64,000 bases of DNA from a virus: positions 64,001 to 128,000 of the IMG/VR virus record IMGVR_UViG_3300042922_000836. One strand, written 5' to 3'. Numbering within the stretch: the stretch's first letter is position 1; each line of letters begins with the position of its first letter. Positions 36,309 through 60,496 of the stretch are shown piece by piece. A model generated the notes under the pieces. The model was given only the letters and a program-made list of their open reading frames with translations. It was not told the DNA's origin and did no database searches. The position numbers and the translations under genes were made by a program.

Positions 36309-36368
36309 TATTTCAATCCCCTTTCTTTTTATATAACAATTATTTTTACGATTTCCTTACAAGACAAA

Positions 36369-38652
36369 TTATAGAAGCTCATATTTCAGAACTTCTATAT
36401 ATCCATATTTTAAACAATTATTTATTTCTGTAACATCTTGATTTTCAATTTTGCTATTTGATTTTTTATATTCCATATTTCCAAATTCAATTTCTTTGGA
36501 TATTAAACTTTTTAGCTTTTGTAAATTATCAGTAGATGCAATCAATTTCATACTATTATGAGTTTTCCATTTGTTACAACTAAAGAGAAGATATGTATTT
36601 TCTTTATTTTCATCTTCATTATCCAAGCCAATCACACCTTTAAATTAAATTTTTCCAGACCAACATCTTCAAGATAATCTTGAAATGCATCATATAATGA
36701 TTTCGATTTATCGGTATAAAGAGGATGTGTTTTAAAATCATTAATTATTTTTATACTTAAATCAAAAACTTCATCACATACCATTTCTTTCTTTTCAAAT
36801 ACTCGGCAAAAATCATATCCCATAACTAAAAGTAAATATGCCTCTTCCTCAGAAAAGGATTTGTTACTGTTTTTTATATTATTAACATCAACCATTGTTT
36901 TTCTCCTTTTATGTTTTAACTTTTTCTCATCATATAATAACTGAAACCATCTTCAGGTACTTCTTTAATATCGAAATTACCTGATGAATCTCCACCGCTT
37001 TTTTTCCAAGCTTTTTCTTCTGCCTGTTTAATTTCATCTGCCATAACGACACCTACGGTAGTTGCTGTGAGTTCTCCTGTTCTCCTGTGAAAATGATTTA
37101 AACTATAAAAATAAGGTTTCATTTGTTTATATCTCCTTTATATTATTCAGGTACTCCACATCCATCTTTAAAGACTGCTCCGCTAATTCTAAACCATTTT
37201 GACATATGATCATAATCTTCGTCAGGAATAAAATTCACACCTTCAATATAATATTTTTCAGTTTTAGGAAAATTTCGTTTTAACTCTTTTATCATATCGT
37301 CATTTGTTTTAATTGGCTTTTCTGTTTTTAAATAAAATGTATATTCTTTATTATGGTCGGTTTTTTCATTTTCTTCTCCATAATAATAAAACCATATCTC
37401 ATAATATTTTGTTTCATAATAATCTGATATTAAAACTTCGTGCTTGTCCTCATCATCGTCTGCCCAAGAAAGAGTACCATTTACATCACATAATGGACAT
37501 ACATCAGTACCCCTATCTACAAGCATTAATTCTTCACAATTACAACATTTCACAAAATCAGCATATTCGCTATAATTATTGTTTTCAGGATTTACCATGT
37601 TTTTAATACTCATATAATCCCCTTTAATTAGTAATCTGTTTCATTTTAGTTAATATATCATTTGCTAAATTGTAAATATAATTATCCTGTGTATAATTTA
37701 TTATCCGTTTTATATTTGTAAATGTTGGCTTTTCAATTATTGTTTTTAAATCCATTATTTCATCTTTTATCTCATTAATCAACATGATTGATGTATTAAA
37801 TTTTAATTGTTTCTCCCTTTCTTGAATAGCATTTATTATTGATTCTTTACATAATACCATTCTAAATCACTCCTTTCATGAATTTCTATAATTATTTTCC
37901 TTGATAAACTATATTTTGAATTTTAACCGCCCTATTGCATATGTTATCTACAATATCTGCCAATCTACTATCGGTACAAAAATCAAATTGATGACCATCC
38001 TTATTTAATTCCTCTATTGCAACATAACACTCAACTAACATTTTATATGAATTTTTTAAATGTTCTTTTACTTCATTTTTTGTCATTGTATTATATCTCC
38101 TTATTTTATTTATAACATATTGTTGTAAAATCTTGATAGTCATTTTTTGCCATACCATCCACAAATGAATTAAATGTAGTCAATTTCTCAACAATAGCCT
38201 TTTCAGATTTTGTAAAATATCCACTAACCTCATTTTTTAATTCTTCTATTGTGTCAAAACTCATATATCTACCATATCTTCTTATTAATAATGTATACAT
38301 AATTAATTCTCCTTTAATTTTTATTTTTGGTGGTAGGTTTTCGGCAACCCACTAACACCGATTAAACATGCTAACCGCATATTTTTTCATCACCATCAGA
38401 GAGTTCATAATCCTCTAACATTTTTTGATATTTTTTTGGTAATTCTTTATAATATTTTTTCACTCTATGACCGCTACTCCATTCATTCAAATAATATTCT
38501 TCAATTACAAACTGGTGCAATTTATCACTATGTAAAATAACAGTTCCTAATCCTAAAACACCCTCTCTAACTGTTGTAACATCTCCCCCTTTTTCAAAAT
38601 ATCTGTTCATTAAGTTTTCAGCATTTGCTAAACTTATTTCATATGTTTTCAT
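36369..38652 (-). CDS. run of small hypothetical proteins (36369-36635, 36632-36895, 36916-37122, 37143-37613, 37624-37860, 37892-38164, 38106-38300, 38371-38652)
   Basis: co-oriented ORFs, most with AGGAG RBSs, behind element at 38681. Confidence 0.6.
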
Positions 38653-38786
38653 ATATCTCCTTTTAATTTTATTTCTACTTATATAACAATTAAAAAGCTA
38701 AATTCCTTACACTTATTACAATTTTTATTTTTTTATTTTAAAATGATCTATAATCTATCATCTGAAGTTCACCTTTTTATACCATA

Positions 38787-39239
38787 TTAAACTTCTGTTA
38801 ATTCATCAGCAAAAGCATCACATTCAATACCATCTTCAAATATAATTTTCCATATAGTTCCAACCTCTTCAAAATCATATTCAGATTCAACGAAACGATT
38901 TATTACAGTACATTTTTGTTTATCATATTTTTTCCATTTACTATCTAAGCCTTGTGTATCAAAAATGCATATTTTACCTATAAGATTTCTCTTATCTCTT
39001 TCCATTTGTTCTACAAATTCATTTGCTGTTAAAATATTTTTTTTACATAGTTTAACATATCCTGTTTTATCTGATTTATGGTTAATTTCTTGTATATGAT
39101 ATTCATCTCCATTATTATCATAATATATATCATTAACTTTAAAATTAAACCAATTAACTATAATATTGTTTTTACTATTTTCTTTTAGTTCTTCTTCTAA
39201 TTCTACAGAACATTCGACTGCATAATTATTAATTATCAT
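38787..39239 (-). CDS. hypothetical protein
   Basis: AGGAG RBS; element at 39273 upstream. Confidence 0.65.
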   Translation of the reverse strand: MIINNYAVECSVELEEELKENSKNNIIVNWFNFKVNDIYYDNNGDEYHIQEINHKSDKTGYVKLCKKNILTANEFVEQMERDKRNLIGKICIFDTQGLDSKWKKYDKQKCTVINRFVESEYDFEEVGTIWKIIFEDGIECDAFADELTEV

Positions 39240-39322
39240 TTAAAAATCTCCTTCCAATATCTATGTATATTTATATAACAATTAAAAGAGATAAATCCTT
39301 ACAAAATCGATTTATCGGTATT

Positions 39323-39628
39323 TTAAAATTTAATTTCTTGTCCAGTTGTAATAAATTCAGAATATACATCAATATCTGGGAAAGCTGGTATATATTCGTA
39401 TCTCGCAATATACAATTCGTTTCCTACAATTTTTCCGTATAATCTGTATGTATCGGTAAAGCCGACACTTTCTTCTGCGGTTAAATTGATTATGACATTG
39501 TTTTCTTTCTTTACAACATAAATATGGTCTTGATTATCGTTTCTGAGTTCCAACATGACATTGTTTAATGTTTTTTTAGGGTTTCTAAGAAAGTCATTCC
39601 AGTTGTATACAAGTTTACATTTATTCAT
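39323..39628 (-). CDS. hypothetical protein
   Basis: GAGG RBS; element at 39674 upstream. Confidence 0.6.
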   Translation of the reverse strand: MNKCKLVYNWNDFLRNPKKTLNNVMLELRNDNQDHIYVVKKENNVIINLTAEESVGFTDTYRLYGKIVGNELYIARYEYIPAFPDIDVYSEFITTGQEIKF

Positions 39629-39764
39629 TTTTAATACCTCTTAAATTTCTATGTATAATTTCTTTTTACATTTATATAACAATTAAAATATCACATTCCT
39701 TACAAAGATTGTCACCTTCAACAATTCATATCTGATGTTAAGTTTAAAGAATAAACATAATTGC

Positions 39765-42700
39765 TTATTTTAAATCATTATAATCGTTTATTGCTCTTTC
39801 TTTAATAGTGTTATATAAAGGATTATCTGCTGTTATATTATGCCATCCATCTGGATCATCTTCATTCCAGTCCTCTCTTGATTCAAATAAAATTATTCCA
39901 TTAAATGCAAAAATTCCGTCTACCTGTTCATCAAATTGCACTTCAACAATTCCATCTAAATCACCTCTAACTTCATAGTTAGAAAAATCAATATATCCAC
40001 CGTCATAACGCATATTTAACATAATAATACCTACTCTCAATATTTATTTTTCATCTTATCTAAATCCATCTTTGATGTAATTATTATTTTTATATTTCTT
40101 ACCAACATAAAATTCTACAGGCTGATTATTCTCCAAAGATTTAATTATTTCTGTTTCATTGTTTAAAGTAGTTAAAATTCTACGATATGATATTCGTTTT
40201 CCACTATATATTGAATCATAAAAATAATTTTCAAATTCTTTTGGAGTTAATGTTTTTCTCTCTGGTTCATACAGTTCCACTCCATCATATCTATTTGCCC
40301 TAAACCGTCTTTCTGAACAAAAATCATCATATGAAATGGCTCTTTTTGACATTCGTAATAAATGCTCGCCATAATCATAATAACTACAATATCTGTTTCC
40401 TATTTTTAACTCCCCTCTGTATTCTTTACTTGGTTTCCCGCCTTTCATAAAACTCTCGGTATAATCTCTTAATTTTTCATTTGTATATATTTTTCCTATA
40501 AAATCTGATAGGCTTCTACCTGATGTGTCATTATTACATCCACTTCTGTCTAAATGTAGTAATCTTCCGTCAGATAATTTTACAAATTTTGTTTCAAATA
40601 TTATTGAATGACTCATATAAAATCTCCTTTAATCTCCTTAATTTAATTTTCATAAATTTTTTCGTCTTTGTTGGAAAGTTGTTCAATAGTAATTTTTTGC
40701 ATTTATTCCTCATCACTAAATTGTAAAGCCTCAATTAAATCCTGTTTACTATTTATCGGTGTAGGAGTATTCATAGAGTTGCCCAACCATATATTCCAAT
40801 GACAAAATCGTAAAAACGTTCATTCACATAAAGGGTTACAACATCTATCATTTTATTTCTTTAATTCCACCGTTCTTCCAAAAAGAAGAACACATTCCAT
40901 ATATTTCATCAACACCATAACCTCTGTTGCCATCGATTGTAGCTGAACTAATATATTTTATAGGAAGTTTTACATCTTTATCTAAAGATATCTCTAATAT
41001 ACTACCAGCACCATTCCAGTTATCATATAACCCACATGATGTATTTTTATCAATTGTTAAATATCCTTTACCTTTACGTTTATTTATTGTTCTATATCCT
41101 TCTTTAATATCGTTCTCACTGTCTTCTATGATTTTATCTTGCAAATCTAATAATTCACCTAAAGTTATATCTACAAAAAATGCAAGAGAATTCATATGTG
41201 ATGTACAATTTGCAACTTCATCCCTAACAGATTTTAAAAATTTACTATCACCATAATCACAATCACGCAAAGCTTTATTTAATTGTAATTTTGTATAACC
41301 TTGCTGTTTTGTCAACCACACAAGAGATGCCTGATTATTTATTATTTCACCATATCTGCCATTATAATGAGGATATACACAATTCAATGTATAATCGTAA
41401 CTTTCATCACCTGTGTCTACTATGATATCAACTTGTACCGATTGATTAATATAATGTTCATATGGATAATTAAAATTAACATGCATATATACCCAATCTT
41501 TAATAAAATCTTCGTATCCATCATATATTTCTTCATCTAAATTATCTGCAATTGTTTTAATAACATCATATTGATATTCAAAACCACAGTCAACATAACA
41601 TTCGTCAAGTAATTCATAAAATTTATTTTTCGGATTTTTAGATTTAAAAATATCTTTTATTGTACTATCTTCAAGATAATCATTGTAATCTGTATAAATA
41701 TCACCTGTATATGTACCATTTTCTTTGTTATAATTTAAATAGCAATTTTTATTTATGCAATCTTTTATCAATTCAACAATTTGTTTCTCTGTTATTTCAA
41801 CTGCAATTTTACTCATTTTATATTCTCCTTTATCTATGCTTATTCATTCTATTATTCCATATTAATATATAATTGTAATCGGTCATCATAAGAGCCACCA
41901 CTTAAATATCTCCCAGCTATTATTAACTCCACCTCTGCATTTAAAAGTTCAATAGAAAAATTTTGTTTTCCTGTTTCAAAATTAAATGTTTGTATATCTT
42001 GCCAAAAAGTATTTGATTTATCTTTTTCAACTTTTATAAAATTTACATTATACAGAGTTGAATAACTGAACTTTGGTAATGCATATAATATATCTTTAAC
42101 TTTCATATAACCACCTATCAACAGTAAATAGTTCCTATATATTCGACAAACTTGTTATCATAATCAAAATTTTCAGGTAAATATTTACTATAAGATTCTT
42201 TCAATTCAATCAGAGCATCTTCTTTATTTTTGTATGCTTGACTAAATAATGTTGGATATTTTTTAATACTTCCTATATAGAAAGATTCGTTAACATAAAA
42301 TTTATTATCAGTAATTATTGACTTAGCTTCTCCCTCGGCTTCATTAAATTCAAATAAATTTGCCTCAACTGCTATATCTGCAATATCCTTATTATTTTTA
42401 ACTTTATAATCAACAAGATCATCATCTGTAATGTACAGACCATATACATAAATACCATATTTATAAATTGACATATTTAATCATCAACTTTTCTAATCTT
42501 CATCAGGAAAGAGAACAGTTGTTACACCTCTATTCCATTCCGTTATAATCCATATTTCACCTATACAAGTGTTATAACTTGCTAAAATTCTATCATCATT
42601 ATTTTCAACAGCTTTATCATTTAAAGGCTTATCATCCTCACATGTATCTCCCCAATCACATTTTTTATATCGTGTTAAAGCATTAATTACATCTTTTGCA

Positions 42701-43639: not shown

Positions 43640-43697
43640 CTCCTATTACGTATTGTCATCTATATAACATTTAAAATTTCATTATCCTTACATCGGT

Positions 43698-45398: not shown

Positions 45399-45538
45399 TT
45401 TTATACCTCTTTCAATTTATAGAATATTATTTTTTGGTAATGACAGCCACCTTTGAGGTGGCTATTTCGGCTAATCAAGCCATCATCAGATTACCTTTTA
45501 ATATCTTCATTTATATAACAATTTAAAATATCCTTTCC

Positions 45539-46492
45539 TTACATTTTAATTTTTGTTTTTGTTTTTGTTTTTGTTTTCGGTTTTGTTGTTGTTTGAAGTT
45601 TCATAGGGATTTTAGGTTCAAGCCATACATCAACATACGATGCACTATCCTCATCAAATTTATAAGTTAGTCCTTGATGTGTTAAAGCAGAATAACCAAT
45701 CTTTTTAATTGCAGTATCAGTATCATAATCATAGAGATAAACATTATTATTTTTATCAATCATATATAAATTTGAATCATCTATTATTCCTTTATTTGTT
45801 TTAACATATCCTTCGGAATCATCAAGCCACATTAGTTTTCTAACATCTAAATCAAAATCATTTAATTTATCATAATAATCATCCCACATGTCATAAATAC
45901 TATTAAAAATTCTTGGTTCATATGAACTATTGCTATATAAAATACCATCCTTTTCTTCAAAATTTCCAATTGTATAAATTTCACCCAAATCATCAAGAAA
46001 AGACATTTTACTTGTTATTGCATTATAAATTAATTTGTGACAAGTATTATCTTTATAAAAATCTTTCTTTAATTGTTTTATAGGAACTAATTGAGATATT
46101 ATATATTCCATAGTATCAGAGATATTTTTTCTTGGCACTATATTAATAATACCATTATGAGCAACTCCTAAATTTGTTCTGAAAGATAATTTTTGCAATG
46201 CTTCTACATTTTCAATTATAGGGAAAGGATGGCAATTTTGCTGATTAACTCCACCATGTGTTGCTATCCTAAAATGCATTATAAGAGAAATATCTTTTAA
46301 ATCTATTCGGCTTTTTAATTTATTTAATTGTTCCTTTAATTCTTCAAGTTTCATAAAGCCTTTTTCTATATTTACCATTTTATTTTCTGTCCACATGATA
46401 CCCGCACCATCTGAATTGTTAGTCCACATTGTTTCAATCAATTCATCTGAAGGCATTTCTACACCCTTTGGTTTACAAGCAATTATACACAT
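45539..46492 (-). CDS. class II (Ntn) glutamine amidotransferase
   Basis: N-terminal MC, N.DGAG, HFRIATHG, HPF, HNGII, SDT, SNSSY. Confidence 0.85.
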   Translation of the reverse strand: MCIIACKPKGVEMPSDELIETMWTNNSDGAGIMWTENKMVNIEKGFMKLEELKEQLNKLKSRIDLKDISLIMHFRIATHGGVNQQNCHPFPIIENVEALQKLSFRTNLGVAHNGIINIVPRKNISDTMEYIISQLVPIKQLKKDFYKDNTCHKLIYNAITSKMSFLDDLGEIYTIGNFEEKDGILYSNSSYEPRIFNSIYDMWDDYYDKLNDFDLDVRKLMWLDDSEGYVKTNKGIIDDSNLYMIDKNNNVYLYDYDTDTAIKKIGYSALTHQGLTYKFDEDSASYVDVWLEPKIPMKLQTTTKPKTKTKTKTKIKM

Positions 46493-47829: not shown

Positions 47830-47909
47830 TTTTATAATCCCCTTAAAGTTTATTTATATTTAAATTTATTACTTTGTACGTTCTTATAACAAATAAAATC
47901 GGTATTTCC

Positions 47910-48788
47910 TTACAAGCTAAAAGCTTTAAGAAATTCCTGTGCCTCATCAATAAATGATGTAGCAACTTCATCAAAAATATAATTATCAGAGTCATTGTCA
48001 TAACGCAAACATATCCATACAGATGATGTAAATTGAAATTCGCTGAAAAAATCACTATTTAAATCAAAATTATTATCAAGTTCATAATAATAATCATGTA
48101 TTAAATTTGCATTTTCTTGACTTTTAATATGAAACCAGCGATGTTCATATCCTTCACTTGCATAACCTACATACGGTGGTTTTAAATAAAAATTTTCTAT
48201 TGCTTCAACTTTTTGCTTTAAAATTTGTAAATCTGTTTTGTTCATAGCTAATCTCCTTGAATTAAAATCATATTTAAATTATTATTTACGACATTGTTAT
48301 AACAATAAAAAACGTTATTTCCTTACATAACGTTTACATTATCAAGATTTATAACGGAAGATATACCCTCAATATAATATTCGCCACCATTGATTGGAAT
48401 GTATGTATCTAAGTCTTCATCAGACAATTCTTCAGCTTTATATAAGGGAACAGGAAAACCCTCCACACTGAATTCTTCATAATAATCATCAAGAGCTTTA
48501 ATTAAATCACCATTTTCATCACAATTAACTATTATAAAATTTGTCCATGCTGTGCCTGAAATTAAATTTAATCTTAACATATTAAATCTCCTTTGCTGTT
48601 TCCCAAATTTCCAATATTAATTGTTTTAAATCAAAAAACATCATTATTTGTTTTTTAGTAAAAAGAAAATAAATACCCATAGGCAAGAATATTAATACTG
48701 CTGTAATATCTTTTGTGATAAAAACATTAACTATTGAAATTGCCACAAGAATTAAACCGCATAATCTTTGTTTCATATGTATCTCCAT
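47910..48788 (-). CDS. three small proteins (47910-48245, 48323-48580, membrane protein 48582-48788)
   Basis: GGAG RBSs; two end inside the 30-bp element. Confidence 0.6.
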
Positions 48789-48920: not shown

Positions 48921-48927
48921 TTATTTA

Positions 48928-49645
48928 TTAATCAACTATTTTTAAAACATCATTAACATTAATATCAAATAATAGAGAACCATCCAAAGTTGGCTCAATA
49001 TCGAAAACATCAATATTTTTTATAAACTCAATAAATTCAACTTTTTGGTCACGTTTTAAGTCAAATATATCAATTTTTATTTGAAAAAAGCCATTTGTTT
49101 CTGTTGGCTCTATATTATCTATTGGTACAATTTCACCATTATATTCTATAACCAATTTTTTCATATATTCAATAGCCTTTTGATATTTTTCATATTGTGG
49201 TTGATTAATGATAAATTTTTTGTCTTTTATGCTTTCCCTATATCTCCTATCCAGTTCCATTAAAAATTTTGCTAAAACTACATCTTTTTCTTCGGGAGTC
49301 ATTAAATCCCTCCTTTATCAGACATAAATTCATCATTTCAAGTTTATTTTCAATTATATAACAACAAGAAAGCTGAATTCCTTACTTATAATATTTCGGT
49401 GGTAACAATTTTTTGCCGATATAACTTGCAAGATTTTCACGTTTTATTGGTATTTCAACTTTAGATCTTGTAATTCTGCCACCATCAGTTTTTTGATTCC
49501 AATTTATATAATTGTTTTCAGTATCATAAAACCAAATTTCTATATATCCATCAACAAATCTTTGATTCTCAATCCGATTAATCGAAATAATTTTATCTTT
49601 AAGTATAATGGTATCTCCGCTTTTTACTCTCCTGACTTTACCCAT
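48928..49645 (-). CDS. two hypothetical proteins (48928-49302, 49382-49645)
   Basis: co-oriented ORFs; separated by element at 49356. Confidence 0.6.
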
Positions 49646-49696
49646 TTATAATAATTCTCACTTCCCTATTTCGTTGTTTTTATATTCAATCATTTA

Positions 49697-49918: not shown

Positions 49919-49922
49919 CTAC

Positions 49923-51162: not shown

Positions 51163-51227
51163 CTCTTATTAATTTATTCATTTATATAACAATAATAACC
51201 TAAAATTCCTTACATGTCAATACTTTG

Positions 51228-51425: not shown

Positions 51426-51548
51426 TTCCTTTCGTTTATATAACTTTTTGAATTGAATAATCCTTACATTCACATAAGCACCCAAACCGAAATTTCGATG
51501 CTTATATTAATCCAAGAATATAACAATTGAAATTGATCTTTCCTTACA

Positions 51549-54128
51549 TCATTTAAGTAACAATTTCACAACTTCTTCCGCAATACATAAATGACTGTCA
51601 CCCAAAACATTTATAACCCTTTGATAATCATTATCATAGGTTACAATAACAGCCTCTGTCAAATTATAAAGTTTATCACTAAAACGATTAAGTTTATATT
51701 CATAATCATTTTTGTATTCAAGCTTTTTCAAACCTCTTTCGCCTTTGAGAGCCTCAGACAATTTTTCAACAAACTGTCTTTTAGCCTCAAATTCTTCTTT
51801 ATTCTCAATTTTTTCGGTTTCAGTTAATTTTTCGTACATATTATCAATCACCATTCTTAATTTATTTTATTTGATAGGTCATCAATATCAAACATTGCTT
51901 TACTACCGTTCTGTAAATAATACAGCACAGCTTCATAAGCTTCAATCGCACCTTTACAATTATTATACATTGCAACAACTTGCGGATTTTTATCATTTTC
52001 AAAATCTTTGGCATACTTTACCTGTTTTTCCATTGCTTTTTTAATGATAATTTTAAGTTCTGACATTGACTTAGCCATATATTTTAATCTCCTTAAATTA
52101 TTTAATAGAAATAAGTCGCATTTTTTTCATTTTCATTTTATTGTCTGGAAATTCCTCATGGTAAATATTTTTCATTTTTTTAATTGCATCACCAACATTT
52201 TTTGCAGTTATTTTGTATGGATTAGATTCTATGTAGCCTATAAATTTTTGCATATTTACATTCCCCTTTCATTTACATAACAATTAAGATTAAATATTCC
52301 TTACCTTAAATCATTTTCTAAACAATCAACAATACATTTTGCTATAATATGTTTATCATATTCACACCAACGATTTCGACCTAAAACTCCCAATCCATTA
52401 CTTGAATAATCTTTTGTATCTTTTGCATATCGGTACATTATTTTATTATGTAAAGAATTACAACATGACCTTTCAGTTGTGAGATATACCACTTTGTTAT
52501 TAACTGGATTTTTTACAAATCCACTGCAACCTCTTTTTTCACCATTAATTATGATATTTTTAAGAGAATATTCAAATCCATCATTAATATTTTTTACCGA
52601 ATTTTTAATTGTTGTTGCTAAAAGAATTTCCTCATAATTAAGTTTCATTAATCAACCAGCTCCTTCATCATTTCATTTAATGCATTATAATCTAAATTAC
52701 CGCTTATATATTTTATATGGTCTGGTGTTTTGTCATATTGCATACCCATATGTTTTATAAAGCTTGAATAAGGCTTTTTTGACTCCTTGTGATTTTTCAT
52801 AAAATCAACTGCACTGCGATATAAAGGTTCTTCATTGTTTATCCATAATGAAACATTCCAAGTTGACTGATTTCTCCAACCATTGTAGTCTGTATTTTCC
52901 ATATTAGCACCTCATTAAAAATTTTTATCTACAATCATATAACGTTTAAGATGATTAATTCCTTACGTTATTTTTTCTTTACAGGTTTTACATTTTTATA
53001 AGCTATTAAATTTATGTAACCTATATATATATTTTTATCATAATATTCATTCATCATTATGTCGTGTAATTTATCATTTGCCTCATCATAATTTTTTGCG
53101 GTTATATTGTATTTGTCAAAATTTATAATGCCAATATATTTTCTCATATATTTGCCATTTCGTAATATTCTTCAATTTCGGTTGTCGGAAATTTATTTGC
53201 AAAATAATTCGCATTATCATTATCAAAATCGTAAATCATTGAGCCTAAAGACATACCGTCTTTAACGATATATGTTATCGTTTCATCAAAAATTGCATAT
53301 GCTTTAGCCATTATATATGCAGTAAAACTATCTTCAAAATATCCTATGACCGACATACCAAGTGAATTATTTTCATCATCGAATTTTATTTTTGTTACTT
53401 TATACATATATTTTATCTCCTATACAAATACATTCATCTTCCATGATACCGTCAAGCCATTCTAAAAGCTGTTTTTCATTTTTAAAATATAAAGGAAGAG
53501 CCAAACCGTCTGCATAAACTCTTAAAGAGTCTTTATCGGACTCAATAGGATCGAGAGCATAACCCATTGTTTCAAGTTTTTTAATTGTTGAATTTTTCAA
53601 TTTTACTGCCATGATTTATTACCTCATTATTTTAAATTTAATTGTAGGATGATTTTTCAACCACCCTACAATCATATAACATTTATATTAATAATTTCCT
53701 TACATTGTCAATTTATCGATTTTTGCTTTGAGGATTTCTTTTCTTTCAGAAATTTTATTAATTTCAGTTCTTATATCATTTAACATAGACATAAATTCAG
53801 CTAAAACTGAACCATCGAATGAATTATCAATTACTGAAAAGAACCGTTTATATTCAAATAATCTTACTTCATTAGTTCCCAATTTTTGATTGATTTTATC
53901 ATTTAATTTTTCAAACAAATAGAAAAGATGAGATTCTTCTACTTCCATAATTTCGTTTTTTAAGCGATTCATGTCTTCAGAATTATAACCAAGGTCTTTC
54001 AATGTATCATATACACCGTCATAATAGCTTTGATATGCAAGATAATCATCATCGTGTTCTTTTTCCTTATACATTCCGTAAGCATTTTTGAATCTTTTTT
54101 CAATTTGCGATTTCTGTTTTTTTGTCAT
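51549..54128 (-). CDS. run of small hypothetical proteins (51549-51854, 51857-52078, 52301-52648, 52648-52902, 53144-53407, 53400-53612, 53700-54128)
   Basis: one or two genes per element-bounded unit, with RBSs. Confidence 0.6.
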
Positions 54129-54930
54129 GGTAAAACCACCTTTAAAAAATTTTATTTACATTTATATAACATTCAGAATTAAATATTCCTTACAAACAAC
54201 ATTTTCGCCTCATCAACATATTTATACTGATTTTGAACAGTCAACCATAAGGTAGATGTTTTAAGCGAGGTATCTATCTTTGCGTATGCATCCGCAAAGT
54301 GTTGTTCAACCTCTAAATTCGGAGTCGCATATATTCTTATATATTCATCCCTTTCTTTTAAATTTCGGTACTACACGCAGTTACTTTCACTGCCCTCATC
54401 CTCTATCGGCTCGTCAGCCTCACCTCTACCTCGTACCATTTTAACCTCTTTCATTAATTTGTTTATTGATTTTAATTATTTATTCAGTAAAAGTGTTTCA
54501 TAAAAATCACCCCTTTTGCTTGATAAATTTGGCGAAATCGTCATCAATATTCATCATACTACAATTCAAAACTCATTCTATAATTCATCATTTTTCCATT
54601 TAAATTAAACTACCACTTGATAACCACCCTCTTTCAATTATGTAATTTTAAAAATCTTTAATTCCTACTAATTTTTTTCATAGAAATCACCTCTTTCACT
54701 TATATAACGTTTCAAACATTTAATTCCTTACCAAGTCATAAAACCACCCCTTTAAAGAATTTTTGCATGGATTATAAAACAATCATCTTTATTTCCCAAC
54801 AGATGAATACACCGTTGAATTTTGTTTTACATTTATATAACGTTTGCTTTGAGTATTTCCTTACGGTAAATTATCCGTACAATCGAAGGCTTGAAGATTT
54901 ATTTCCTCAAGCCATCTCAACACCTATAAT

Positions 54931-55422: not shown

Positions 55423-55493
55423 GATAAGCACCTCATATTAAATTTTAAATTAAATTTCCTTGCAATTATATAATACTTGAATTTAAGATTTCC

Positions 55494-55823
55494 TTACGCA
55501 ACGATTTCAAGGACTTTCATTCGGTCAGCCAATATCCATTGACCGCCTTGTGACTCAGGTCTATCATATGTAGAAAAATTTTCAACTTCGACTTTTACCC
55601 AAACTCTCGCACAGCCATTTTTAGGATTTTTACTTAAATGTGGTGCATATGGTGTAAAGGTACAATGCCATCCTTGACGAACCGCAAAACCTTTTGTCGG
55701 AATACATTCAGACTTCAACCATTGACCAACAGGAACAACATTTTTTGCACCAATAAACAAAGCACCCAGAGTTCCGTTTTTTCTTAATTTCATCAGTTTA
55801 TAAGCTATCATTTTCAAAACCAA
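55494..55823 (-). CDS. hypothetical protein
   Basis: bounded by elements at 55846 and 55468; stop inside element. Confidence 0.65.
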   Translation of the reverse strand: MVLKMIAYKLMKLRKNGTLGALFIGAKNVVPVGQWLKSECIPTKGFAVRQGWHCTFTPYAPHLSKNPKNGCARVWVKVEVENFSTYDRPESQGGQWILADRMKVLEIVA

Positions 55824-55871
55824 CCTTTAAATTTTAATTACACTTATATAACAATTGAATTAATTGATTCC

Positions 55872-56144
55872 TTACGATATATAGCAATTATTTTCGATTC
55901 TGCCTGTTTGCATGGTATACCATGACATTACAAGCACATGATTATCAGTTTCCGCAATATCAATTTTTGTAGAGCCTTCGCTACCGCAAAATATTCCGCA
56001 AAAAGGTGTTCCATCCTCATTGACCATAGTCAAGCCATTGTTTGCCAGAATTGTCTGTACCTCGTCAACTGCGACCTCATCACGATAGATCACATCAGAC
56101 AACTGATAATTACATTTTTTTATTGCCAACTTTAAACTTCCCAT
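55872..56144 (-). CDS. hypothetical protein
   Basis: bounded by elements at 56183 and 55846; stop inside element. Confidence 0.65.
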   Translation of the reverse strand: MGSLKLAIKKCNYQLSDVIYRDEVAVDEVQTILANNGLTMVNEDGTPFCGIFCGSEGSTKIDIAETDNHVLVMSWYTMQTGRIENNCYIS

Positions 56145-56231
56145 AATAGTTACCTCTTTTTTAATAATTTTGTGTTACACTTATATAACAACAGAAAATT
56201 AGTTTTCCTTACGCAAAATTATCTGCATAAT

Positions 56232-56255
56232 AAAAAGCATGAAAATATCATGCTC
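56232..56255 (-). terminator. rho-independent terminator
   Basis: AGCATGA-N5-TCATGCT followed by TTTT on minus strand. Confidence 0.55.
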
Positions 56256-56875
56256 TTGATTATGTATAAAATTTGTAATAATCGGCATGTAAGGCAATAG
56301 CAATCTCTATTTACTACTGCCTTATATGGAAACTAACAGATAACTGTTTGAATTTTTCCATACTACACCGACTACCTTTTTTTCATAGATTTTATCACAT
56401 CCTTTCATTGTACTCATCCCCATGACTTATAAACCAAACTTTAAATCATTATGTAAATTTTATTTGATTTTTTTGTTTGTTTTATCACTCTTTACTCTTG
56501 ACCGCTAAGAGTAAAGACTCGCCCACTGTTGCCAGTAAGAGAGTTATCGCCATGGGTACATTTTAACGAATTTTTCCAGAAACTAAGGTTATCGTGATTC
56601 TTACCCTATAGCGGTCAAAACAAAATACTTGCAATTACTTAATTTTGTCTATAGTTCCCATAAAAGGGAGTAAGAAAGTCATTCCTTCCAAAGTTTGCCA
56701 TACAGGAGATTCTGTGAAAATTTCGCCAAAATGATGATTATTTGTTTGGTACAGTATTCGCTATTACGTGGCAACCGTATTAGTACCATTTAAGCTATAA
56801 ATTTTTGTAATGATTTTTTGCATAATTTAAAACACTAAATATTTTTAATATTTTAAACTACATAAAAAAACTTTA
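56232..56875 (-). ncRNA. putative structured non-coding RNA
   Basis: no ORF of 60 aa or more; lies between tandem promoter-like array and terminator; several helices whose mismatches read as G-U pairs on the minus strand. Confidence 0.5.
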
Positions 56876-56880
56876 CATTT

Positions 56881-57233
56881 ATATAACACTTGAAAATCAT
56901 TTTTCCTTACAAGCTTTTTTTACTGATTTTTAAATGTTTATTGCTTACGATAATATAACATTTAAAAACTTAATTTCCTTACATTGAATTTTTATTGATT
57001 TTTCCATGCAATTATATAACATTTATAATCTTAATTTCCTTACATATTGCATTTAAGGAAATTTTAAAAATATACTTTACAATTATATAACACTTATTTT
57101 TTATGATTCCTTACAGATCGTAGTGTAACACTTTTGTCACACATTTTTAACTAAAATTTACCGATTGCATATTTGAATTATTTGTAAATTAATCTTTACA
57201 ATAATATAACACTTAAAAACACTGATTCCTTAC
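56881..57233 (-). repeat. tandem array of five 30-bp elements
   Basis: copies at 56881, 56953, 57014, 57085, 57204 separated by 42, 31, 41 and 89 nt of non-coding DNA. Confidence 0.9.
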
Positions 57234-57261
57234 ACCTAAAATTTACCAGTAAAAATATGGT

Positions 57262-57289
57262 AAAAAATAGGAGGCATCACTGCCTCCTA
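57262..57289 (-). terminator. rho-independent terminator of sigma-like gene
   Basis: TAGGAGGCA-N4-TGCCTCCTA then TTTTT on minus strand. Confidence 0.8.
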
Positions 57290-57312
57290 AATCTTACCAG
57301 TATCGTCTGGGA

Positions 57313-58701
57313 TTATTTACCAAAATGTTTTTTAACCATTTTTTGGAATTTTTCTATTAAATACCATTTTTCAAGCTTGTTACAATATATGGTATATAAG
57401 GAAATATTATCCATATATTCAATATCACTTTCTGTGTATTCCGACTCTTGACCGACTTTTAAATTATTATACACTTCGTGAGATTCAAGCCACTTGAAAT
57501 AATTTACCATATTATGGTTAAAAGCACCGTCTATCACATGGTGTATATTAAAGTTACCGTCTTTTATCGCAGTATGTGAATTTTCGAGTTTGTCAAGGAA
57601 CTTTGTACCCTTTGTGACTTTTTTGTGTCCTGTCATCAATTCTTCAATAGCTTGATAATCTTTACGTCTGTATGACTTAATTGCGTCAATATCTTTAAAT
57701 TTCAATGCCACTTCACGAATTCGTGACATATGACCGCTTACGGTCTTCATACTGCATCCAACTTTTTCCGCTATTGCCAGATCCTGCCAGCCATATGACC
57801 GATATTTTAAAATTTGTGCCTGTCTGGGAGTAATTTCCTTTAAAAAGGAATTAATTAACTCATTTTCTCCAGATTTTTCCAGTAGCCTGTCAATCTCGGA
57901 ATTGACACAAATCTGGGAATAAATACCATTTTCACCGTTCTCATCAAGTGTGTCTTCAATGTAAAGTTTTCTTGGAACATAATCAACTTTTCTGTGAAGT
58001 TTTTCTTCCTCAATTAAACTGTCAATATTTACCAGTGTAACATTTTTATCGGCAATCATGCTGGCAATCTCTTCCAGTTTAGCGGTTGAAACTTCCACTT
58101 TTTGGTGCTTTAGGATTTTTCTGGCAATAATCAAATTATTGTAAAGTTTGGTATTTTCGGTATTTTTTACCATTTTATTATTTCCGTATAAGGAATTTTT
58201 TACCATATTACAAGCTTTTAAAAATATTGATTTCATGGTATTTTTTGCCAGTATCATATCAGCATATTCACTGGAATTTAATTCCAGTCCGTCTTTTAAT
58301 TTTTGCTCCAGTTTATACCAGTAATTTAAGGTTTCAATGGGTATTTTTACCAGTTCTTCATACATTGCTAAATAGGCAATATTTACCAGATCCATAGAGT
58401 CATTGTTGATGCTTGACAAATTTTGGAAATTATTTACCATTTTAAGGTTATGAACTGACGGATTTTTTGACATAATATATTTGCAAGAATAACATGCACA
58501 TGTCACAGAAATGTCATATAGAATTTTCATTCTTAAAAGCGGGTATTTGGTAAACTTTTCCTTAATTTCTGCATTTACTTCTGCCAAAGTTTGGTAATTT
58601 TCAGGTACTACTAAATTTTCCATATTCTGGGCGATTAAAGGGTTTTTGGAATTTTCTTCCAGTGTGAGATTCTCCGAGTAAATTTTTACAGTTTTTTCCA
58701 T
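57313..58701 (-). CDS. large divergent sigma70-family (ECF/group 5-like) factor or LuxR-HTH regulator
   Basis: region-2-like DSMDLVNIAYLAMYEE and region-4 HTH ITPRQAQILKYRSYGWQDLAIAEKVGCSMKTVSGHMSRIR; AAGGA RBS. Confidence 0.65.
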   Translation of the reverse strand: MEKTVKIYSENLTLEENSKNPLIAQNMENLVVPENYQTLAEVNAEIKEKFTKYPLLRMKILYDISVTCACYSCKYIMSKNPSVHNLKMVNNFQNLSSINNDSMDLVNIAYLAMYEELVKIPIETLNYWYKLEQKLKDGLELNSSEYADMILAKNTMKSIFLKACNMVKNSLYGNNKMVKNTENTKLYNNLIIARKILKHQKVEVSTAKLEEIASMIADKNVTLVNIDSLIEEEKLHRKVDYVPRKLYIEDTLDENGENGIYSQICVNSEIDRLLEKSGENELINSFLKEITPRQAQILKYRSYGWQDLAIAEKVGCSMKTVSGHMSRIREVALKFKDIDAIKSYRRKDYQAIEELMTGHKKVTKGTKFLDKLENSHTAIKDGNFNIHHVIDGAFNHNMVNYFKWLESHEVYNNLKVGQESEYTESDIEYMDNISLYTIYCNKLEKWYLIEKFQKMVKKHFGK

Positions 58702-58787
58702 TTTTTAGTACTTCCTTTTTTAAAATATAATTTTAGTCAAAGGTTATAATTGCATATTCAATTTTCAACTAAACCTTCGCCATGACT

Positions 58788-58816
58788 ATAGTATCACATT
58801 AAAGTTATTAAGTCAA
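58788..58816 (-). promoter_or_regulatory. sigmaA promoter of sigma-like gene
   Basis: TTGACT-N17-TACTAT with extended TG. Confidence 0.65.
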
Positions 58817-59630
58817 TAGGCAATTTTTACCAGTAATAATGTTTCCGATGGTAAATAATGGTATTTTTTTATAAATCACCCGAAGTCGCCTAAAATTTAC
58901 CAGTTTTTTAAATGGAAATATATGGTAATGCGACCTTTTGCTGTAAAGTCGAATTATACGGGGTATTTACCATTTTTTTAGGAGGTTTTCCGACCGAAAA
59001 TGAGGATTAGTAGGTACTTCTCATCGATCCAGTCCTTCCCAGAACCGATTGATTTGTCACTAAACAGCACTTTTCTTTCGGAAATTTCTTCGGTGCAAAG
59101 ATCATCACCAATACACTTCAAACTCTCATTGTAGTCACTAAAAACCGATTTTAACAGCACACAGAAATAGCCTTGTTTTTGGCTGTTTTTCACCTCTGTT
59201 TTGTCTTGTTTTGTGCGGATTCACATTGTTTTAAAGCTGAAACCCTCATGTTTCCTGTGTTTTATCGAAGATTACAGGTGGACAGGGGGTTATTTGTCAT
59301 TTATGGGGGTGTATTTTGAGCAGTAACCTACCTATTATATAGGAAGATAAAACATACAGCCAACTATAATACCCGCCTTAAATACGAACACAAGCTGTCA
59401 GGAACGGTTTTAAACGCACTCTATAACGCATAAAGTAATAATGTATAAACAGCACAAATACAGTCTGAATACTCGGTCAACAACCAACCTTATATATATG
59501 TAAAGCACTGTATCAGTTCACAGCAAAAGAAAATCCATAATCGCTGAAAGCCTTACAACATCAATGTTTATATAATGTATGTTCAACGTTGATAATAATA
59601 ATAGTTCACAAATATTTCACAAATACCCTA

Positions 59631-59659
59631 TTGACTTACCACCTATACTATGATATAAT
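59631..59659 (+). promoter_or_regulatory. sigmaA promoter of recombinase gene
   Basis: TTGACT-N17-TATAAT with extended TG; ATTACTT-N4-C motif at 59666-59677. Confidence 0.8.
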
Positions 59660-59704
59660 TATCGTGTTGAAAGTAATAACACTTACAACAAAAGGAGAAT
59701 TTAT

Positions 59705-60496
59705 ATGATAAATACTTATGTTTCAGGCAATAGCACAATAACAGTTAATCCCGCTTTCAGAAGAGTAGTTGAACAGTGGAAACAGAGAAACAAAGTCGAG
59801 AAAGCCACTGTAGAGAATAACTTTCCGAAACAGGAGTTCACAGCAAAGCCTACAGCGAAATATTCTCTGTATACAACAGATGGCAGACCGAAACCAAAGT
59901 GCGGAGATGCAATTAAAGACAAGGACACCATACAGGCAATAAAAGAAGCTCTCCTTAACTCAGGCAAATTCGGATACCGCAACTACCTTATATATACAGT
60001 GGGCATAAATGTAGGTCGCAGAGCTGGTGACTTGCTTAAACTGAAGGTCAGTGATGTAATGTCCAAAGGAAACATAAAGTGTGAGATTGTCCATGTCGAG
60101 GAAAAGACAGGCAAGATTATAGAGTTCTACTTTAACGATACAATCAGAAATGCAATTGCAGAATACTTGAATTCACAGCCTGACCTTAAAGCTACAGATT
60201 ACCTGTTCAAAAGCCACAAGGGTGATGGTAGGTTGACCACAAAAGCATACTGGAGAATACTTAAAGATGTACAGAACCAGTTGCAACTCACAGATCACCT
60301 GTCAACACACAGTATGCGTAAAACCTTTGGATATCACAAGTACCAAGAATACAAAGGTCAGCAAATAGAGGGCGGGTTTGATGTGGTAGATATGTTACAG
60401 GATGCATACGGACACAGCAGTCGCAAACAGACCATGACTTATATAGGTATAAGCAAGGAAAACAAAAAGAAGTTGTATTGTGACTCTACACTATAA
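59705..60496 (+). CDS. tyrosine recombinase (catalytic domain, no obvious arm-binding domain)
   Basis: intact R (GRRAGDLL), K (EEKTGK), HSMRKT, GHSS, Y (TMTYIG); AGGAG RBS. Confidence 0.9.
   Translation: MINTYVSGNSTITVNPAFRRVVEQWKQRNKVEKATVENNFPKQEFTAKPTAKYSLYTTDGRPKPKCGDAIKDKDTIQAIKEALLNSGKFGYRNYLIYTVGINVGRRAGDLLKLKVSDVMSKGNIKCEIVHVEEKTGKIIEFYFNDTIRNAIAEYLNSQPDLKATDYLFKSHKGDGRLTTKAYWRILKDVQNQLQLTDHLSTHSMRKTFGYHKYQEYKGQQIEGGFDVVDMLQDAYGHSSRKQTMTYIGISKENKKKLYCDSTL

What the first reader, a model, noticed from the sequence alone, without database searches (positions are those of the whole stretch)
36331..60496. Candidate new system: phage sigma factor, 26 element-bounded gene units, tandem array, ncRNA and adjacent tyrosine recombinase
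Seen: one 30-bp element (minus strand GTAAGG-N17-GTTATA, often followed by AnTGTAA) recurs 26 times in one orientation with invariant spacing, at gene boundaries or in non-coding DNA, and was not seen in the first 36 kb. Density rises towards 57.2 kb, where five tandem copies abut the terminator of a 462-aa sigma-like gene. An intact tyrosine recombinase lies divergently 1 kb beyond that gene. Established: two hexamers with a 17-nt spacer is sigma70-family promoter geometry, and GTTATA is the -10 of clostridial group-5 sigmas (BotR/TetR), but their -35 is TTTACA, not GTAAGG. Inference: a host sigmaA promoter (58788-58816) makes a private sigma that fires a 21-kb field of promoter+RBS+gene units. 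The polarised layout next to a recombinase recalls an integron-like accessory gene capture and shuffling platform.
Basis: partly seen in the sequence, partly recalled or inferred. Interest (0 to 1): 0.9.

Follow-up and report, generated by a model that had tools for sequence, protein, structure and literature searches.

The report
Phage sigma factor with private promoters
A large soil phage carries its own very divergent sigma factor next to 26 copies of one unusual promoter that head a block of small accessory genes and a large folded RNA, a known way for phages to run genes on a private switch rather than a new gene-capture machine.

Summary
GTAAGG-N17-GTTATA occurs 24 times exactly and 26 times with one mismatch, all on the minus strand at window 36332-57233. 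It occurs nowhere else in the 137-kb phage genome.

The elements look like promoters:
- 19 of 26 lie 19-115 nt before a ribosome site and start codon.
- Five tandem copies precede a ~640-nt ORF-free, strongly folded RNA candidate with no Rfam match.

The adjacent 462-aa protein belongs to a small, very divergent sigma-70-family clade (folds). It has a host-type sigmaA promoter and a terminator.

Four of the five relatives checked for the factor and the motif were read in full. They share the replication genes but have neither the factor nor the motif. One relative has an equivalent array of 13 host-type promoters, and one of these heads a homologue of a field gene.

The integron-like reading is not supported. 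The recombinase is Xer-like, it is conserved in relatives that lack the elements, and the elements have no attC features.

Nothing here is experimental, and no close relative exists to test cassette turnover. The scan's own notes describe similar private-sigma arrays on other DNA, which I did not check.

The parts
58788..58816 (-). Host-type (sigmaA-like) promoter of the sigma-like gene: TTGACT, 17 nt, TACTAT, with TG before the -10
   Evidence: Consensus scan. It resembles the divergent promoter at 59631-59659 (inverted repeat I1, 54 nt, 70% complementary).
57313..58701 (-). 462-aa divergent sigma-70-family protein (P0001). Residues ~57-240 are sigma2/3-like with an insertion, 280-335 are sigma4/LuxR-type HTH, and 336-462 are a unique extension of unknown fold.
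   Evidence: No lead for the extension.
57268..57289 (-). Intrinsic terminator after the sigma-like gene (9-bp stem with 5 G-C pairs, then a T run)
   Evidence: sequence.
57205..57233 (-). Promoter element, tandem copy 1
   Evidence: (score 44.8).
57086..57114 (-). Promoter element, tandem copy 2
   Evidence: (40.9).
57015..57043 (-). Promoter element, tandem copy 3
   Evidence: (43.9).
56954..56982 (-). Promoter element, tandem copy 4
   Evidence: (41.3).
56882..56910 (-). Promoter element, tandem copy 5, the one nearest the RNA
   Evidence: (46.7, the best in the genome).
56226..56875 (-). Candidate ~640-nt structured non-coding RNA. Its 5' end is inferred a few nt after the last -10. Its 3' end is taken at the hairpin 56257-56233 plus the U run.
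   Evidence: No minus-strand ORF of 40 aa or more. MFE -181.2 kcal/mol. z is -15.4 with 20 shuffles and -8.2 with my own 40 shuffles; the plus strand gives -5.5; 13 control windows give +1.0 to -3.5. Helices with pair probability 0.9 or more are mapped. No Rfam match.
56184..56212 (-). Promoter element heading the 90-aa ORF 55872-56144
55847..55875 (-). Promoter element heading ORF 55494-55817. Its TAA is the stop codon of the upstream ORF.
55469..55497 (-). Promoter element (one mismatch, ATTATA) heading ORF 54931-55422. It supplies the stop of the upstream ORF.
54836..54864 (-). Promoter element in the ORF-poor stretch; no ORF of 30 aa or more behind it
54703..54731 (-). Promoter element in the ORF-poor stretch, followed only by ribosome-site and start-codon stubs of 3-22 codons
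54165..54193 (-). Promoter element heading the 142-aa ORF 53700-54128
53675..53703 (-). Promoter element heading ORF 53400-53612; supplies the upstream stop
52938..52966 (-). Promoter element heading ORF 52648-52902, then 52301-52648. The latter has a homologue behind a host-type promoter in relative G002.
52276..52304 (-). Promoter element (one mismatch, GTTATG) heading ORF 52098-52253; supplies the upstream stop
51519..51547 (-). Promoter element, first of a pair before ORF 51228-51419
51439..51467 (-). Promoter element, second of the pair before ORF 51228-51419
51185..51213 (-). Promoter element heading ORF 50818-51153. A TTGACA lies just upstream, so a host-type promoter overlaps it.
49357..49385 (-). 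Promoter element heading ORF 48928-49302; supplies the upstream stop
48298..48326 (-). Promoter element heading ORF 47910-48245; supplies the upstream stop
47885..47913 (-). Promoter element heading the amidoligase-like gene 46483-47829 and the GATase-like gene 45539-46492; supplies the upstream stop
45514..45542 (-). Promoter element heading ORF 44994-45398 (115-nt leader); supplies the upstream stop
43663..43691 (-). Promoter element heading ORF 43334-43630 and about 4 kb of further ORFs
39675..39703 (-). Promoter element heading ORF 39323-39628
39274..39302 (-). Promoter element heading ORF 38787-39239
38682..38710 (-). Promoter element heading ORF 38371-38652
36332..36360 (-). Last promoter element, heading the ClpX-like AAA+ gene 35133-36308. 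It is preceded by a hairpin at 36399-36370.
59705..60496 (+). Xer-like tyrosine recombinase, divergent neighbour, with its own host-type promoter at 59631-59659. By my reading it is not part of the promoter system.
   Evidence: Homologues in G001, G003 and G004.

Best explanation
This is a phage-private transcription module. The steps below are inferred unless marked as shown.

1. Host sigmaA RNA polymerase starts at a host-type promoter (58816-58788). It makes the 462-aa protein and stops at the terminator at 57289-57268.
2. That protein is a very divergent sigma-70-family factor. It replaces sigmaA on the host core enzyme.
3. Its HTH domain (residues ~285-335) reads the invariant GTAAGGAA. 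Its N-terminal sigma2-like domain reads the invariant (T)GTTATAT, 15 nt further on.
4. The holoenzyme starts a few bases later, near the conserved TG-A.
5. This fires 26 co-oriented promoters that exist nowhere else in the genome. Five tandem copies drive a ~640-nt structured RNA. Twenty-one more drive about 48 small, mostly orphan accessory genes, ending with a ClpX-like ATPase gene.

The neighbouring replication genes keep host-type promoters.

Shown by computation: the sites, their placement, the family membership of the protein's relatives, the fold signal of the RNA, and the absence of factor and motif together in relatives.

Inferred: that the protein binds core polymerase, that it is the factor that reads these sites, the transcription start sites, and the timing.
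For: Sites:
- 26 sites with a fixed 17-nt spacer, one orientation, restricted to 21 kb.
- 19 of 26 lie 19-115 nt upstream of a ribosome site and start codon.
- There is no dyad symmetry (sequences).

Not a host sigmaA promoter:
- The element is not a good sigmaA promoter. The hexamer in -35 register is AAGGAA. T at -7 is present in only 3 of 26 sites (sequences).
- The five clearest sigmaA-type promoters of this genome all keep T at -7. These are the three perfect-consensus promoters and the two divergent ones.

The protein:
- It is the only sigma4-like match in the genome.
- All 12 of its homologues are proteins of 169-567 aa, most with the HTH at the C-terminus.
- 15 of 15 family members, P0001 included, hit NCBIfam TIGR02937, the sigma-70 family model.
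- In P0006, P0009 and P0011 the match covers both region 2 and region 4. P0011 scores above the curated cut-off, 44.5 against 42.9 bits.
- P0001 residues 57-335 align to the family profile at 99.8% probability.

Fold searches with the AlphaFold model:
- Foldseek against the PDB: almost all of the 50 listed rows are sigma chains, with best E 4.8e-3.
- VIA-align: sigma4 domains at Z 8.6-9.2, and whole sigma factors aligned over model residues 34-340.
- Foldseek against BFVD: phage sigma factors among the named rows.

Relatives:
- 0 of 5 relatives have the factor, and none has the motif above its control.
- Relative G002 has an equivalent array of 13 host-type promoters, with 21 matches in the genome. 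One of them heads a 48%-identical homologue of field gene 52301-52648.
Against: - P0001 itself has no Pfam Sigma70_r2 match. It scores below the TIGR02937 cut-off, 27.9 bits, and only over the linker and region 4.
- By sequence against solved structures only the HTH matches, and LuxR/NarL regulators score better than sigma factors there.
- Fold matches of the N-terminal part are weak. No Foldseek E-value reaches 0.001, and the multi-domain rows have rmsd 9-24 A. The tool warns that helical models often reach such Z values by chance.
- A 125-aa extension after region 4 is atypical for sigma factors.
- The -10 part (TGTTATATA) has the geometry of an extended -10 of sigmaA, as in relative G002 (TGGTAAGAT). 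A role for the host sigma is therefore not excluded.
- The one homologue-bearing phage fragment I could read (G006, 46% complete) shows no repeated promoter.
- There are no RNA data of any kind.
Confidence: 0.6

Rival explanations
1. Sigma appropriation or activator model. The elements are read by host sigmaA through the extended -10-like TGTTATAT. The 462-aa protein, or another phage protein, binds GTAAGGAA as an activator that replaces -35 recognition, as MotA and AsiA do at T4 middle promoters.
For: - The geometry equals that of the host-type array in G002: hexamer, 14 nt, TGn, hexamer.
- The HTH of P0001 scores best against LuxR/NarL activators by sequence.
- T4 middle promoters pair a sigma70 -10 with a MotA box. 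This is from the abstract listing of PMC2988021 and PMC6024815, plus recall.
Against: - T at -7 is missing in 23 of 26 sites.
- GTAAGGAA is a single asymmetric site, whereas LuxR-type activators usually bind repeats as dimers (recalled).
- Family members match a sigma-70 model over region 2 as well as region 4.
- The folds found are sigma factors over the whole length.
Confidence: 0.17
2. The elements are promoters, but their reader is not the 462-aa protein. It is either a host alternative sigma or another, unrecognised phage factor. From memory, the -35 half recalls the AGGAWWT of sigmaH.
For: - The link between protein and sites rests on adjacency and joint absence in relatives, not on any assay.
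- Most field genes have no known function.
Against: - No other sigma-like gene was found in the genome.
- The extended motif occurs only as singletons in 185,579 species' genomes (2 hits), in the metagenome collection (1 hit) and in IMG/VR (76 singletons of a shorter pattern). No host regulon with this exact signal was seen.
- The -10 half does not fit sigmaH (recalled).
Confidence: 0.1
3. Integron-like platform. The tyrosine recombinase captures and shuffles gene cassettes at the 30-bp elements.
For: - Polarised array next to a recombinase gene.
- 8 of 26 elements supply the stop codon of the upstream ORF, within G-TAA-GG.
- The field genes are almost all absent from relatives.
- An ORF-poor stretch holds gene-start stubs.
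Against: - The recombinase is Xer-like and not an integron integrase.
- It is conserved in G001, G003 and G004, which have no elements.
- The elements have no inverted-repeat structure.
- Each unit carries its own promoter.
- There is only one paralogue pair in the field.
- The stubs share nothing with other genes beyond the promoter itself.
Confidence: 0.03
4. The repeated promoters also serve as homology patches for recombinase-independent cassette exchange, as proposed for the promoter-early stem-loops (PeSLs) of T4-type phages. This adds to the promoter model and does not replace it.
For: - PeSLs are described as composite promoter-terminator motifs that mediate indels in hyperplastic regions (abstracts of PMC2839356 and PMC4122927).
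- The field is lineage-specific.
- A field gene sits in the equivalent array of G002 behind another promoter type.
- Elements abut gene ends tightly.
Against: - Terminator-like hairpins precede only 2 of the 26 elements.
- No close relative exists in which to see breakpoints.
- The laid contigs gave no usable joints.
Confidence: 0.25

Closest known systems
Phage-encoded alternative sigma factors with their own promoter class: SPO1 gp28 and gp33/34, and phiEco32 gp36 with phage 7-11
   Same: - A host-sigma promoter makes a phage sigma, which redirects host core polymerase to a conserved non-host promoter used many times in the phage genome.
- The SPO1 switch from sigmaA to phage sigmas is stated in the abstract of PMC13401047 (listing).
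- In-silico inference of such promoters for phages 7-11 and phiEco32 is in the abstract of PMC4331800.
   Different: - The protein is not detectably related to these by the searches run. tblastn against 50,697 phage records found nothing.
- It has a sigma2 insertion and a 125-aa C-terminal extension.
- The consensus GTAAGGAA-N15-GTTATAT is its own.
- The regulon is one contiguous 21-kb accessory field plus an RNA, not the replication or late genes.
- The SPO1 consensus sequences are only recalled, not checked.
Group-5 (TcdR/BotR/TetR/UviA) clostridial sigma factors
   Same: The -10 hexamer GTTATA is the same (passages of PMC4031146).
   Different: - Their -35 is TTTACA.
- The SRQ marker of their region 4.2 is absent; P0001 has S-R-I.
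- P0001 is 462 aa and matched no such family model.
PeSLs (promoter-early stem-loops) and early-promoter arrays of large lytic phages
   Same: - Many near-identical promoters punctuate a hypervariable block of small orphan genes.
- Relative G002 has exactly such an array with host-type promoters.
   Different: - PeSLs are host sigma70 promoters fused to a stem-loop.
- Here the -35 is non-host, and hairpins precede only 2 of 26 elements.
- Exchange at the elements is untested.
T4 middle promoters (MotA box plus sigma70 -10, with AsiA)
   Same: A host-like (extended) -10 is combined with a foreign conserved box in place of -35, at fixed spacing.
   Different: - The candidate factor is itself sigma-like.
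- The -7 T is missing in 23 of 26 sites.
- I did not search for MotA or AsiA homologues.
Large ornate phage-associated RNAs (GOLLD, ROOL)
   Same: Several-hundred-nucleotide, highly structured RNAs of unknown function linked to phages. From abstract listings of 10.1101/2024.12.08.627333 and PMC5737381; the link to phages is partly recalled.
   Different: - No match to either Rfam model, or to any other, at E up to 1.
- The evidence is one sequence only, so no covariation.
Integrons (IntI, attI, attC cassettes)
   Same: A polarised array of small genes near a tyrosine recombinase gene.
   Different: - The recombinase is not IntI-like.
- There are no attC-type hairpin sites.
- Every unit has its own promoter.

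Membership tests
Sigma-70 family (for the 462-aa protein) | Region 4 helix-turn-helix that reads the -35 element | tested here: met
   - Pfam GerE at residues 290-329, E 6.4e-7.
- Sigma70_r4_2 at 17.6 bits and Sigma70_r4 at 14.6 bits, both below cut-off.
- VIA-align Z 8.6-9.2 to sigma4 of SigF, SigD, SigC, SigK and RpoE, with rmsd 1.5-3.1 A over 56-68 residues.
- LuxR-type regulators share this fold and also match.
Sigma-70 family (for the 462-aa protein) | Region 2 (core binding, -10 recognition) | tested here: inconclusive
   - No Pfam Sigma70_r2 match in the genome or in P0001.
- Relatives P0006, P0009 and P0011 match TIGR02937 from profile positions 5-24 onwards.
- P0001 residues 57-335 align to their profile at 99.8%.
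- Whole-length fold matches to sigma factors are weak.
Sigma-70 family (for the 462-aa protein) | Score above the curated cut-off of NCBIfam TIGR02937 | tested here: not met
   - P0001 scores 27.9 bits against a cut-off of 42.9.
- Family member P0011 scores 44.5 and P0009 scores 41.2.
Sigma-70 family (for the 462-aa protein) | Binds core RNA polymerase and confers promoter-specific initiation | not testable with these tools
   This needs biochemistry.
Group-5 sigma factors (TcdR/BotR/TetR/UviA) and their promoters | -10 element GTTATA | tested here: met
   24 of 26 sites have GTTATA. The family consensus is from passages of PMC4031146.
Group-5 sigma factors (TcdR/BotR/TetR/UviA) and their promoters | -35 element TTTACA | tested here: not met
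   All 26 sites have GTAAGG.
Group-5 sigma factors (TcdR/BotR/TetR/UviA) and their promoters | SRQ motif in region 4.2 | tested here: not met
   P0001 reads S-R-I at that place. The marker is as stated in PMC4031146.
Integron | IntI-type integrase | tested here: not met
   The best NCBIfam rows are the XerA, XerD and XerC models at 46-66 bits, against cut-offs of 220-335. No integron-integrase model is listed at E up to 0.01.
Integron | attC sites: imperfect inverted repeats that fold as hairpins at cassette ends | tested here: not met
   The two conserved halves are not complementary, and the spacer varies (26 aligned sites). No intra-element inverted repeat is listed for 56100-59750.
Integron | Promoterless cassettes read from one common promoter | tested here: not met
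   26 promoter-like elements are spread through the array.
PeSL-type mobile regulatory cassettes | Conserved promoter repeated at the borders of small ORFs in a hypervariable block | tested here: met
   The field genes are absent from G001 and nearly absent from G002, G003 and G004.
PeSL-type mobile regulatory cassettes | Composite with a stem-loop terminator | tested here: not met
   Terminator-like hairpins lie directly upstream of only 2 of 26 elements: 57289-57268 and 36399-36370.
PeSL-type mobile regulatory cassettes | Indel breakpoints at the elements between close relatives | not testable with these tools
   No close relative was found. The laid contigs gave no usable joints.
Known RNA families (for the 640-nt RNA) | Match to an Rfam covariance model | tested here: not met
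   0 matches at gathering scores over the window. 0 matches at E up to 1 over 56000-59800.

The most novel reading that the evidence does not exclude
The private promoter is also a standard cassette border. Its -35 half carries an in-frame TAA that ends the gene before it, and its conserved 40 bp serve as homology for swapping accessory genes. If so, any captured gene falls at once under a sigma factor that only the phage makes. That would be an integron-like result reached without a site-specific recombinase. The same switch would massively express a new class of large structured phage RNA.
Probability: 0.12. Interest if true: 0.75.

Novelty: new member of a known kind. Interest (0 to 1): 0.45.

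Why it matters
If the assignment holds, it gives a new, sharply defined sigma-promoter pair: GTAAGGAA-N15-GTTATAT, read by a sigma family that standard domain models miss. That is useful for annotating phage sigma factors and as an orthogonal expression switch.

It also shows, within one phage group, the same early accessory array run either on host-type promoters (relative G002) or on a private sigma.

The ~640-nt RNA fed by five tandem promoters is a candidate new large structured phage RNA, but it rests on a single sequence.

Tried and rejected
Close relatives. None was found.
- megablast and tblastn against the phage records found nothing.
- The word-indexed protein search returned only the query itself.
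- The IMG/VR scan with P0001 confirmed no relative.
- The IMG/VR scan with the homologue P0008 found none.
- The motif scan of IMG/VR gave 76 loci, each with a single match.
- The extended motif gave 1 singleton in the metagenome contigs, with no further copy in that locus, and 2 singletons in the genome contigs.

Comparative test of the factor.
- The homologue P0014 lies on an IMG/VR fragment (L079/G006, 46% complete). It has no over-represented two-part motif and no excess of the element.
- G001, G004 and G003 have no repeated two-part motif.

The RNA.
- No Rfam family matched and no tRNA or tmRNA was found.
- blastn against phages and nhmmer against G001, G004 and G006 found nothing.
- Covariation could therefore not be tested.

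Other sequence checks.
- The second ORF-free stretch, 54194-54695, is not unusually structured (z -1.5).
- Its gene-start stubs match nothing in the genome except promoter cores.
- The C-terminal extension of P0001 gave no usable atlas hit.
- The single-sequence AlphaFold model was too poor to use (mean pLDDT 38).

Expression. No RNA holder was listed. The only run is a DNA run that may be the source sample.

Laid contigs. Laying that run's contigs on 37400-57350 gave only 20-40-nt pieces. The joints had sides of 20-31 nt, which the tool itself calls unreliable, so I drew nothing from them.

Not done.
- I did not search for MotA or AsiA homologues.
- I did not annotate the late genes.
- I did not open paper supplements.

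Full report
WHAT THE WINDOW IS. The window is bases 64001-128000 of a 137,094-bp virus record with direct terminal repeats. The DNA polymerase III alpha gene (6988-10185, minus strand) is 40-44% identical to those of Geobacillus virus E3, the Tsamsa-like Bacillus phages and an uncultured gut phage. It is 43-64% identical to 44 IMG/VR loci. G+C content is 25-34%. The only sequencing run that holds the stretch is labelled soil metagenome and may be the source. Almost all genes from 30 to 58701 lie on the minus strand.

THE OBSERVATION. GTAAGG-N17-GTTATA occurs 24 times exactly and 26 times with one mismatch, against 0.00 and 0.29 expected from shuffles. All copies are on the minus strand, between 36332 and 57233.
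- In the whole genome there are no further copies, and only a spacer of 17 gives any match.
- A 43-nt weight matrix separates the 26 sites (scores 34-47) from everything else; nothing scores between 8 and 34.
- It is the most over-represented non-trivial two-part word in the genome.

WHY THE SITES ARE PROMOTERS.
- 19 of the 26 sites are followed within 19-115 nt by a Shine-Dalgarno sequence and a start codon. These open 18 distinct ORFs.
- All sites point the same way as the genes.
- The two conserved halves are not complementary to each other, so the element is not a hairpin site.
- 8 of the 26 provide the stop codon of the preceding ORF (G-TAA-GG), and five more begin within 14 nt of the preceding stop. 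The packing is very tight.
- None of the upstream ORFs I take as real runs on to the TAA in the -10 half. This looks like compaction more than random junctions.
- Terminator-like hairpins precede only two elements, so most units probably read through into the next.

WHY THE HOST'S MAIN SIGMA FACTOR PROBABLY DOES NOT READ THEM.
- In the register of an extended -10 (TGn plus hexamer), the hexamer is TATATA. T at -7 is present in 3 of 26 sites.
- The hexamer in -35 register is AAGGAA.
- The same genome has clear host-type promoters that keep T at -7. Three are perfect TTGACA-17-TATAAT sites at 28041, 27482 and 26343, each correctly placed before a gene. Two are similar divergent promoters at 58816-58788 and 59631-59659.
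- Two promoter classes therefore coexist. The private class is confined to 36-57 kb.

THE 462-AA PROTEIN. Pfam finds only a LuxR/GerE-type helix-turn-helix at residues 290-329. No Sigma70_r2 match exists anywhere in the genome, and the only weak region-4 matches are in this protein. It has no close relative. An exhaustive HMMER search of 1.84 billion representatives found 12 homologues at E up to 0.001, the best at 33% identity. They are proteins of 169-567 aa, all metagenomic singletons, and two are named sigma-70 family by JGI.
- All 15 family members, the 462-aa protein itself (P0001) included, hit the NCBIfam sigma-70 family model TIGR02937.
- In P0006, P0009 and P0011 the match runs from profile positions 5-24 to the end, covering region 2 and region 4. 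P0011 passes the curated cut-off.
- P0001 itself scores 27.9 bits over the linker and region 4 only. Its residues 57-335 nevertheless align to the family profile at 99.8% probability.
- The alignment shows a ~45-residue insertion in the sigma2-like part and a unique 125-residue tail. The tail gave no lead.

Fold evidence. The AlphaFold model built with 15 sequences is confident for residues 60-240 and 285-335.
- Foldseek against the PDB lists almost only sigma-factor chains, with weak E-values (best 4.8e-3).
- VIA-align gives sigma4 domains at Z about 9, and whole sigma factors aligned across residues 34-340 at high rmsd.
- BFVD lists phage sigma factors among its named rows.
- By sequence against solved structures only the HTH matches, and LuxR/NarL proteins lead.
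- My reading is a very divergent sigma factor, with region 2 not independently proven.

LINK BETWEEN FACTOR AND SITES. The gene sits at the head of the array. It has a host-type promoter, and a strong terminator separates it from the first element. None of the 26 elements lies upstream of it, so it is not self-activating. Five relatives were checked (G001-G005, polymerase identity 55-64%). None has a family member, and none has the motif above the reversed-pattern control. Presence of both here and absence of both there is consistent with a pair, but it is only one lineage. The homologue-bearing fragment G006 shows no repeated motif.

WHAT RELATIVES HAVE INSTEAD. G001, G002, G003 and G004 share the replication module, with 16 hits each in G002 and G003.
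- Of the field genes, none has a homologue in G001 and one has a homologue in each of G002, G003 and G004.
- G002 (182 kb) has 21 copies of TTGACA-N14-TGGTAAGAT, a host-type promoter with an extended -10. Thirteen of them lie in a 22-kb plus-strand block at 159.4-181.2 kb.
- The homologue of field gene 52301-52648 (48% identity over 75 residues) lies directly behind the first promoter of that block.
- The field is thus the counterpart of a classical early-promoter array. In this phage the array has been moved onto a private factor.

THE TANDEM ARRAY AND THE RNA. Five elements start at 57233, 57114, 57043, 56982 and 56910, with spacings of 119, 71, 61 and 72 nt. Copies 3 and 4 have nearly identical spacers, which suggests duplication. 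They precede about 650 nt with no minus-strand ORF of 40 aa or more. That region ends in a hairpin with a U run at 56257-56226, just before the next element.
- The region folds far better than shuffles: z -15.4 with the tool's 20 shuffles and -8.2 with my 40. The opposite strand gives -5.5, and 13 control windows of equal length give +1.0 to -3.5.
- Several long-range helices have pair probabilities of 0.9 or more.
- No Rfam family matches and no homologue was found.
- It is therefore a single-sequence candidate for a new large structured RNA.
- A second ORF-poor stretch (54194-54860, behind two elements) is not unusually structured. It holds only start stubs of 3-22 codons.

THE RECOMBINASE AND THE INTEGRON IDEA.
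- The 263-aa protein is the only PF00589 match in the genome. It matches integrase PHROGs, and Xer-type NCBIfam models far below their cut-offs.
- Homologues at 31-32% identity exist in G001, G003 and G004, which have no elements.
- A large serine recombinase lies elsewhere, at genome 48037-48468.
- To the right of the tyrosine recombinase lie anti-repressor-like genes.
- The elements lack attC features, and each unit has a promoter. The field holds one paralogue pair only.
- The integron-like model is therefore not supported.
- A recombinase-independent role of the repeats in cassette exchange, as proposed for PeSLs of T4-type phages (abstracts of PMC2839356 and PMC4122927), remains possible but untested.

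COMPARISON WITH THE KNOWN.
- The working principle matches phage-encoded sigma factors with private promoters. Examples are SPO1 (abstract listing of PMC13401047) and phiEco32 and 7-11 (abstract of PMC4331800).
- The -10 equals that of group-5 clostridial sigmas, but the -35 and the SRQ marker do not fit (PMC4031146 passages).
- The scan's notes report similar private-sigma arrays on other DNA, including a 135-kb temperate gut phage with about 26 cassettes. I did not check those notes, and they share no similar sequence with this protein.

VERDICT. The promoter and private-factor reading is the best explanation (0.6). The integron-like reading is rejected. I class it as a new member of a known kind, with an untested but interesting RNA attached.

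Noticed in passing
window 57240-58980, minus strand: The word TGGTAAA occurs 12 times on the coding strand in 1,741 nt, against 0.35 expected (Poisson P about 5e-15). It lies inside the sigma-like gene in two reading frames, three times upstream at 70-nt steps, and once just before the first element. The gene uses the rare CTG for 10 of its 45 leucines, against 19 of 381 in 11 other large genes. The word resembles the extended -10 (TGGTAAGAT) of the host-type promoters in relative G002. Its function is unknown; candidates include regulator sites and sigma-dependent pause sites.
   Followed up: partly
window 54194-54860, minus strand: An ORF-poor stretch lies behind two elements. It holds four ribosome-site and start-codon stubs of 3-22 codons. 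It is not unusually structured (z -1.5) and has no similarity to other genes. It may be decayed cassettes or tiny peptide genes.
   Followed up: partly
window 58773-58826 and 59621-59674: Two divergent host-type promoters about 800 bp apart are 70% alike over 54 nt. One heads the sigma-like gene and the other heads the recombinase and anti-repressor genes. This looks like a paired early control region.
   Followed up: no
window 28041-28013, 27482-27454, 26343-26315, minus strand: Three perfect TTGACA-17-TATAAT promoters are each correctly placed before a gene. This shows that the replication-side genes use the host sigma factor.
   Followed up: partly
G002 (record of locus L083), 159,398-181,186 plus strand: A relative phage carries an array of 13 near-identical host-type promoters (TTGACA-N14-TGGTAAGAT-ATAAGAGT) before small genes, with 21 copies in the genome.
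   Followed up: partly
window 45539-47829, minus strand: An Amidoligase_2-like gene (448 aa) and a class-II glutamine amidotransferase-like gene (317 aa) lie as a pair inside the private-promoter field.
   Followed up: no
G000 genome 143-1006 and 128,571-136,405 (beyond the window's right end), plus strand: Five paralogous ORFs at 25-45% identity. From its sequence, the contig-end ORF looks like a DNA methyltransferase, but no family search was run.
   Followed up: no
It is probably the integrase proper.
   Followed up: no
window 51220-51192 and 53711-53683, minus strand: At two elements a TTGACA lies just upstream of GTAAGG, so a host-type promoter overlaps the private one.
   Followed up: no
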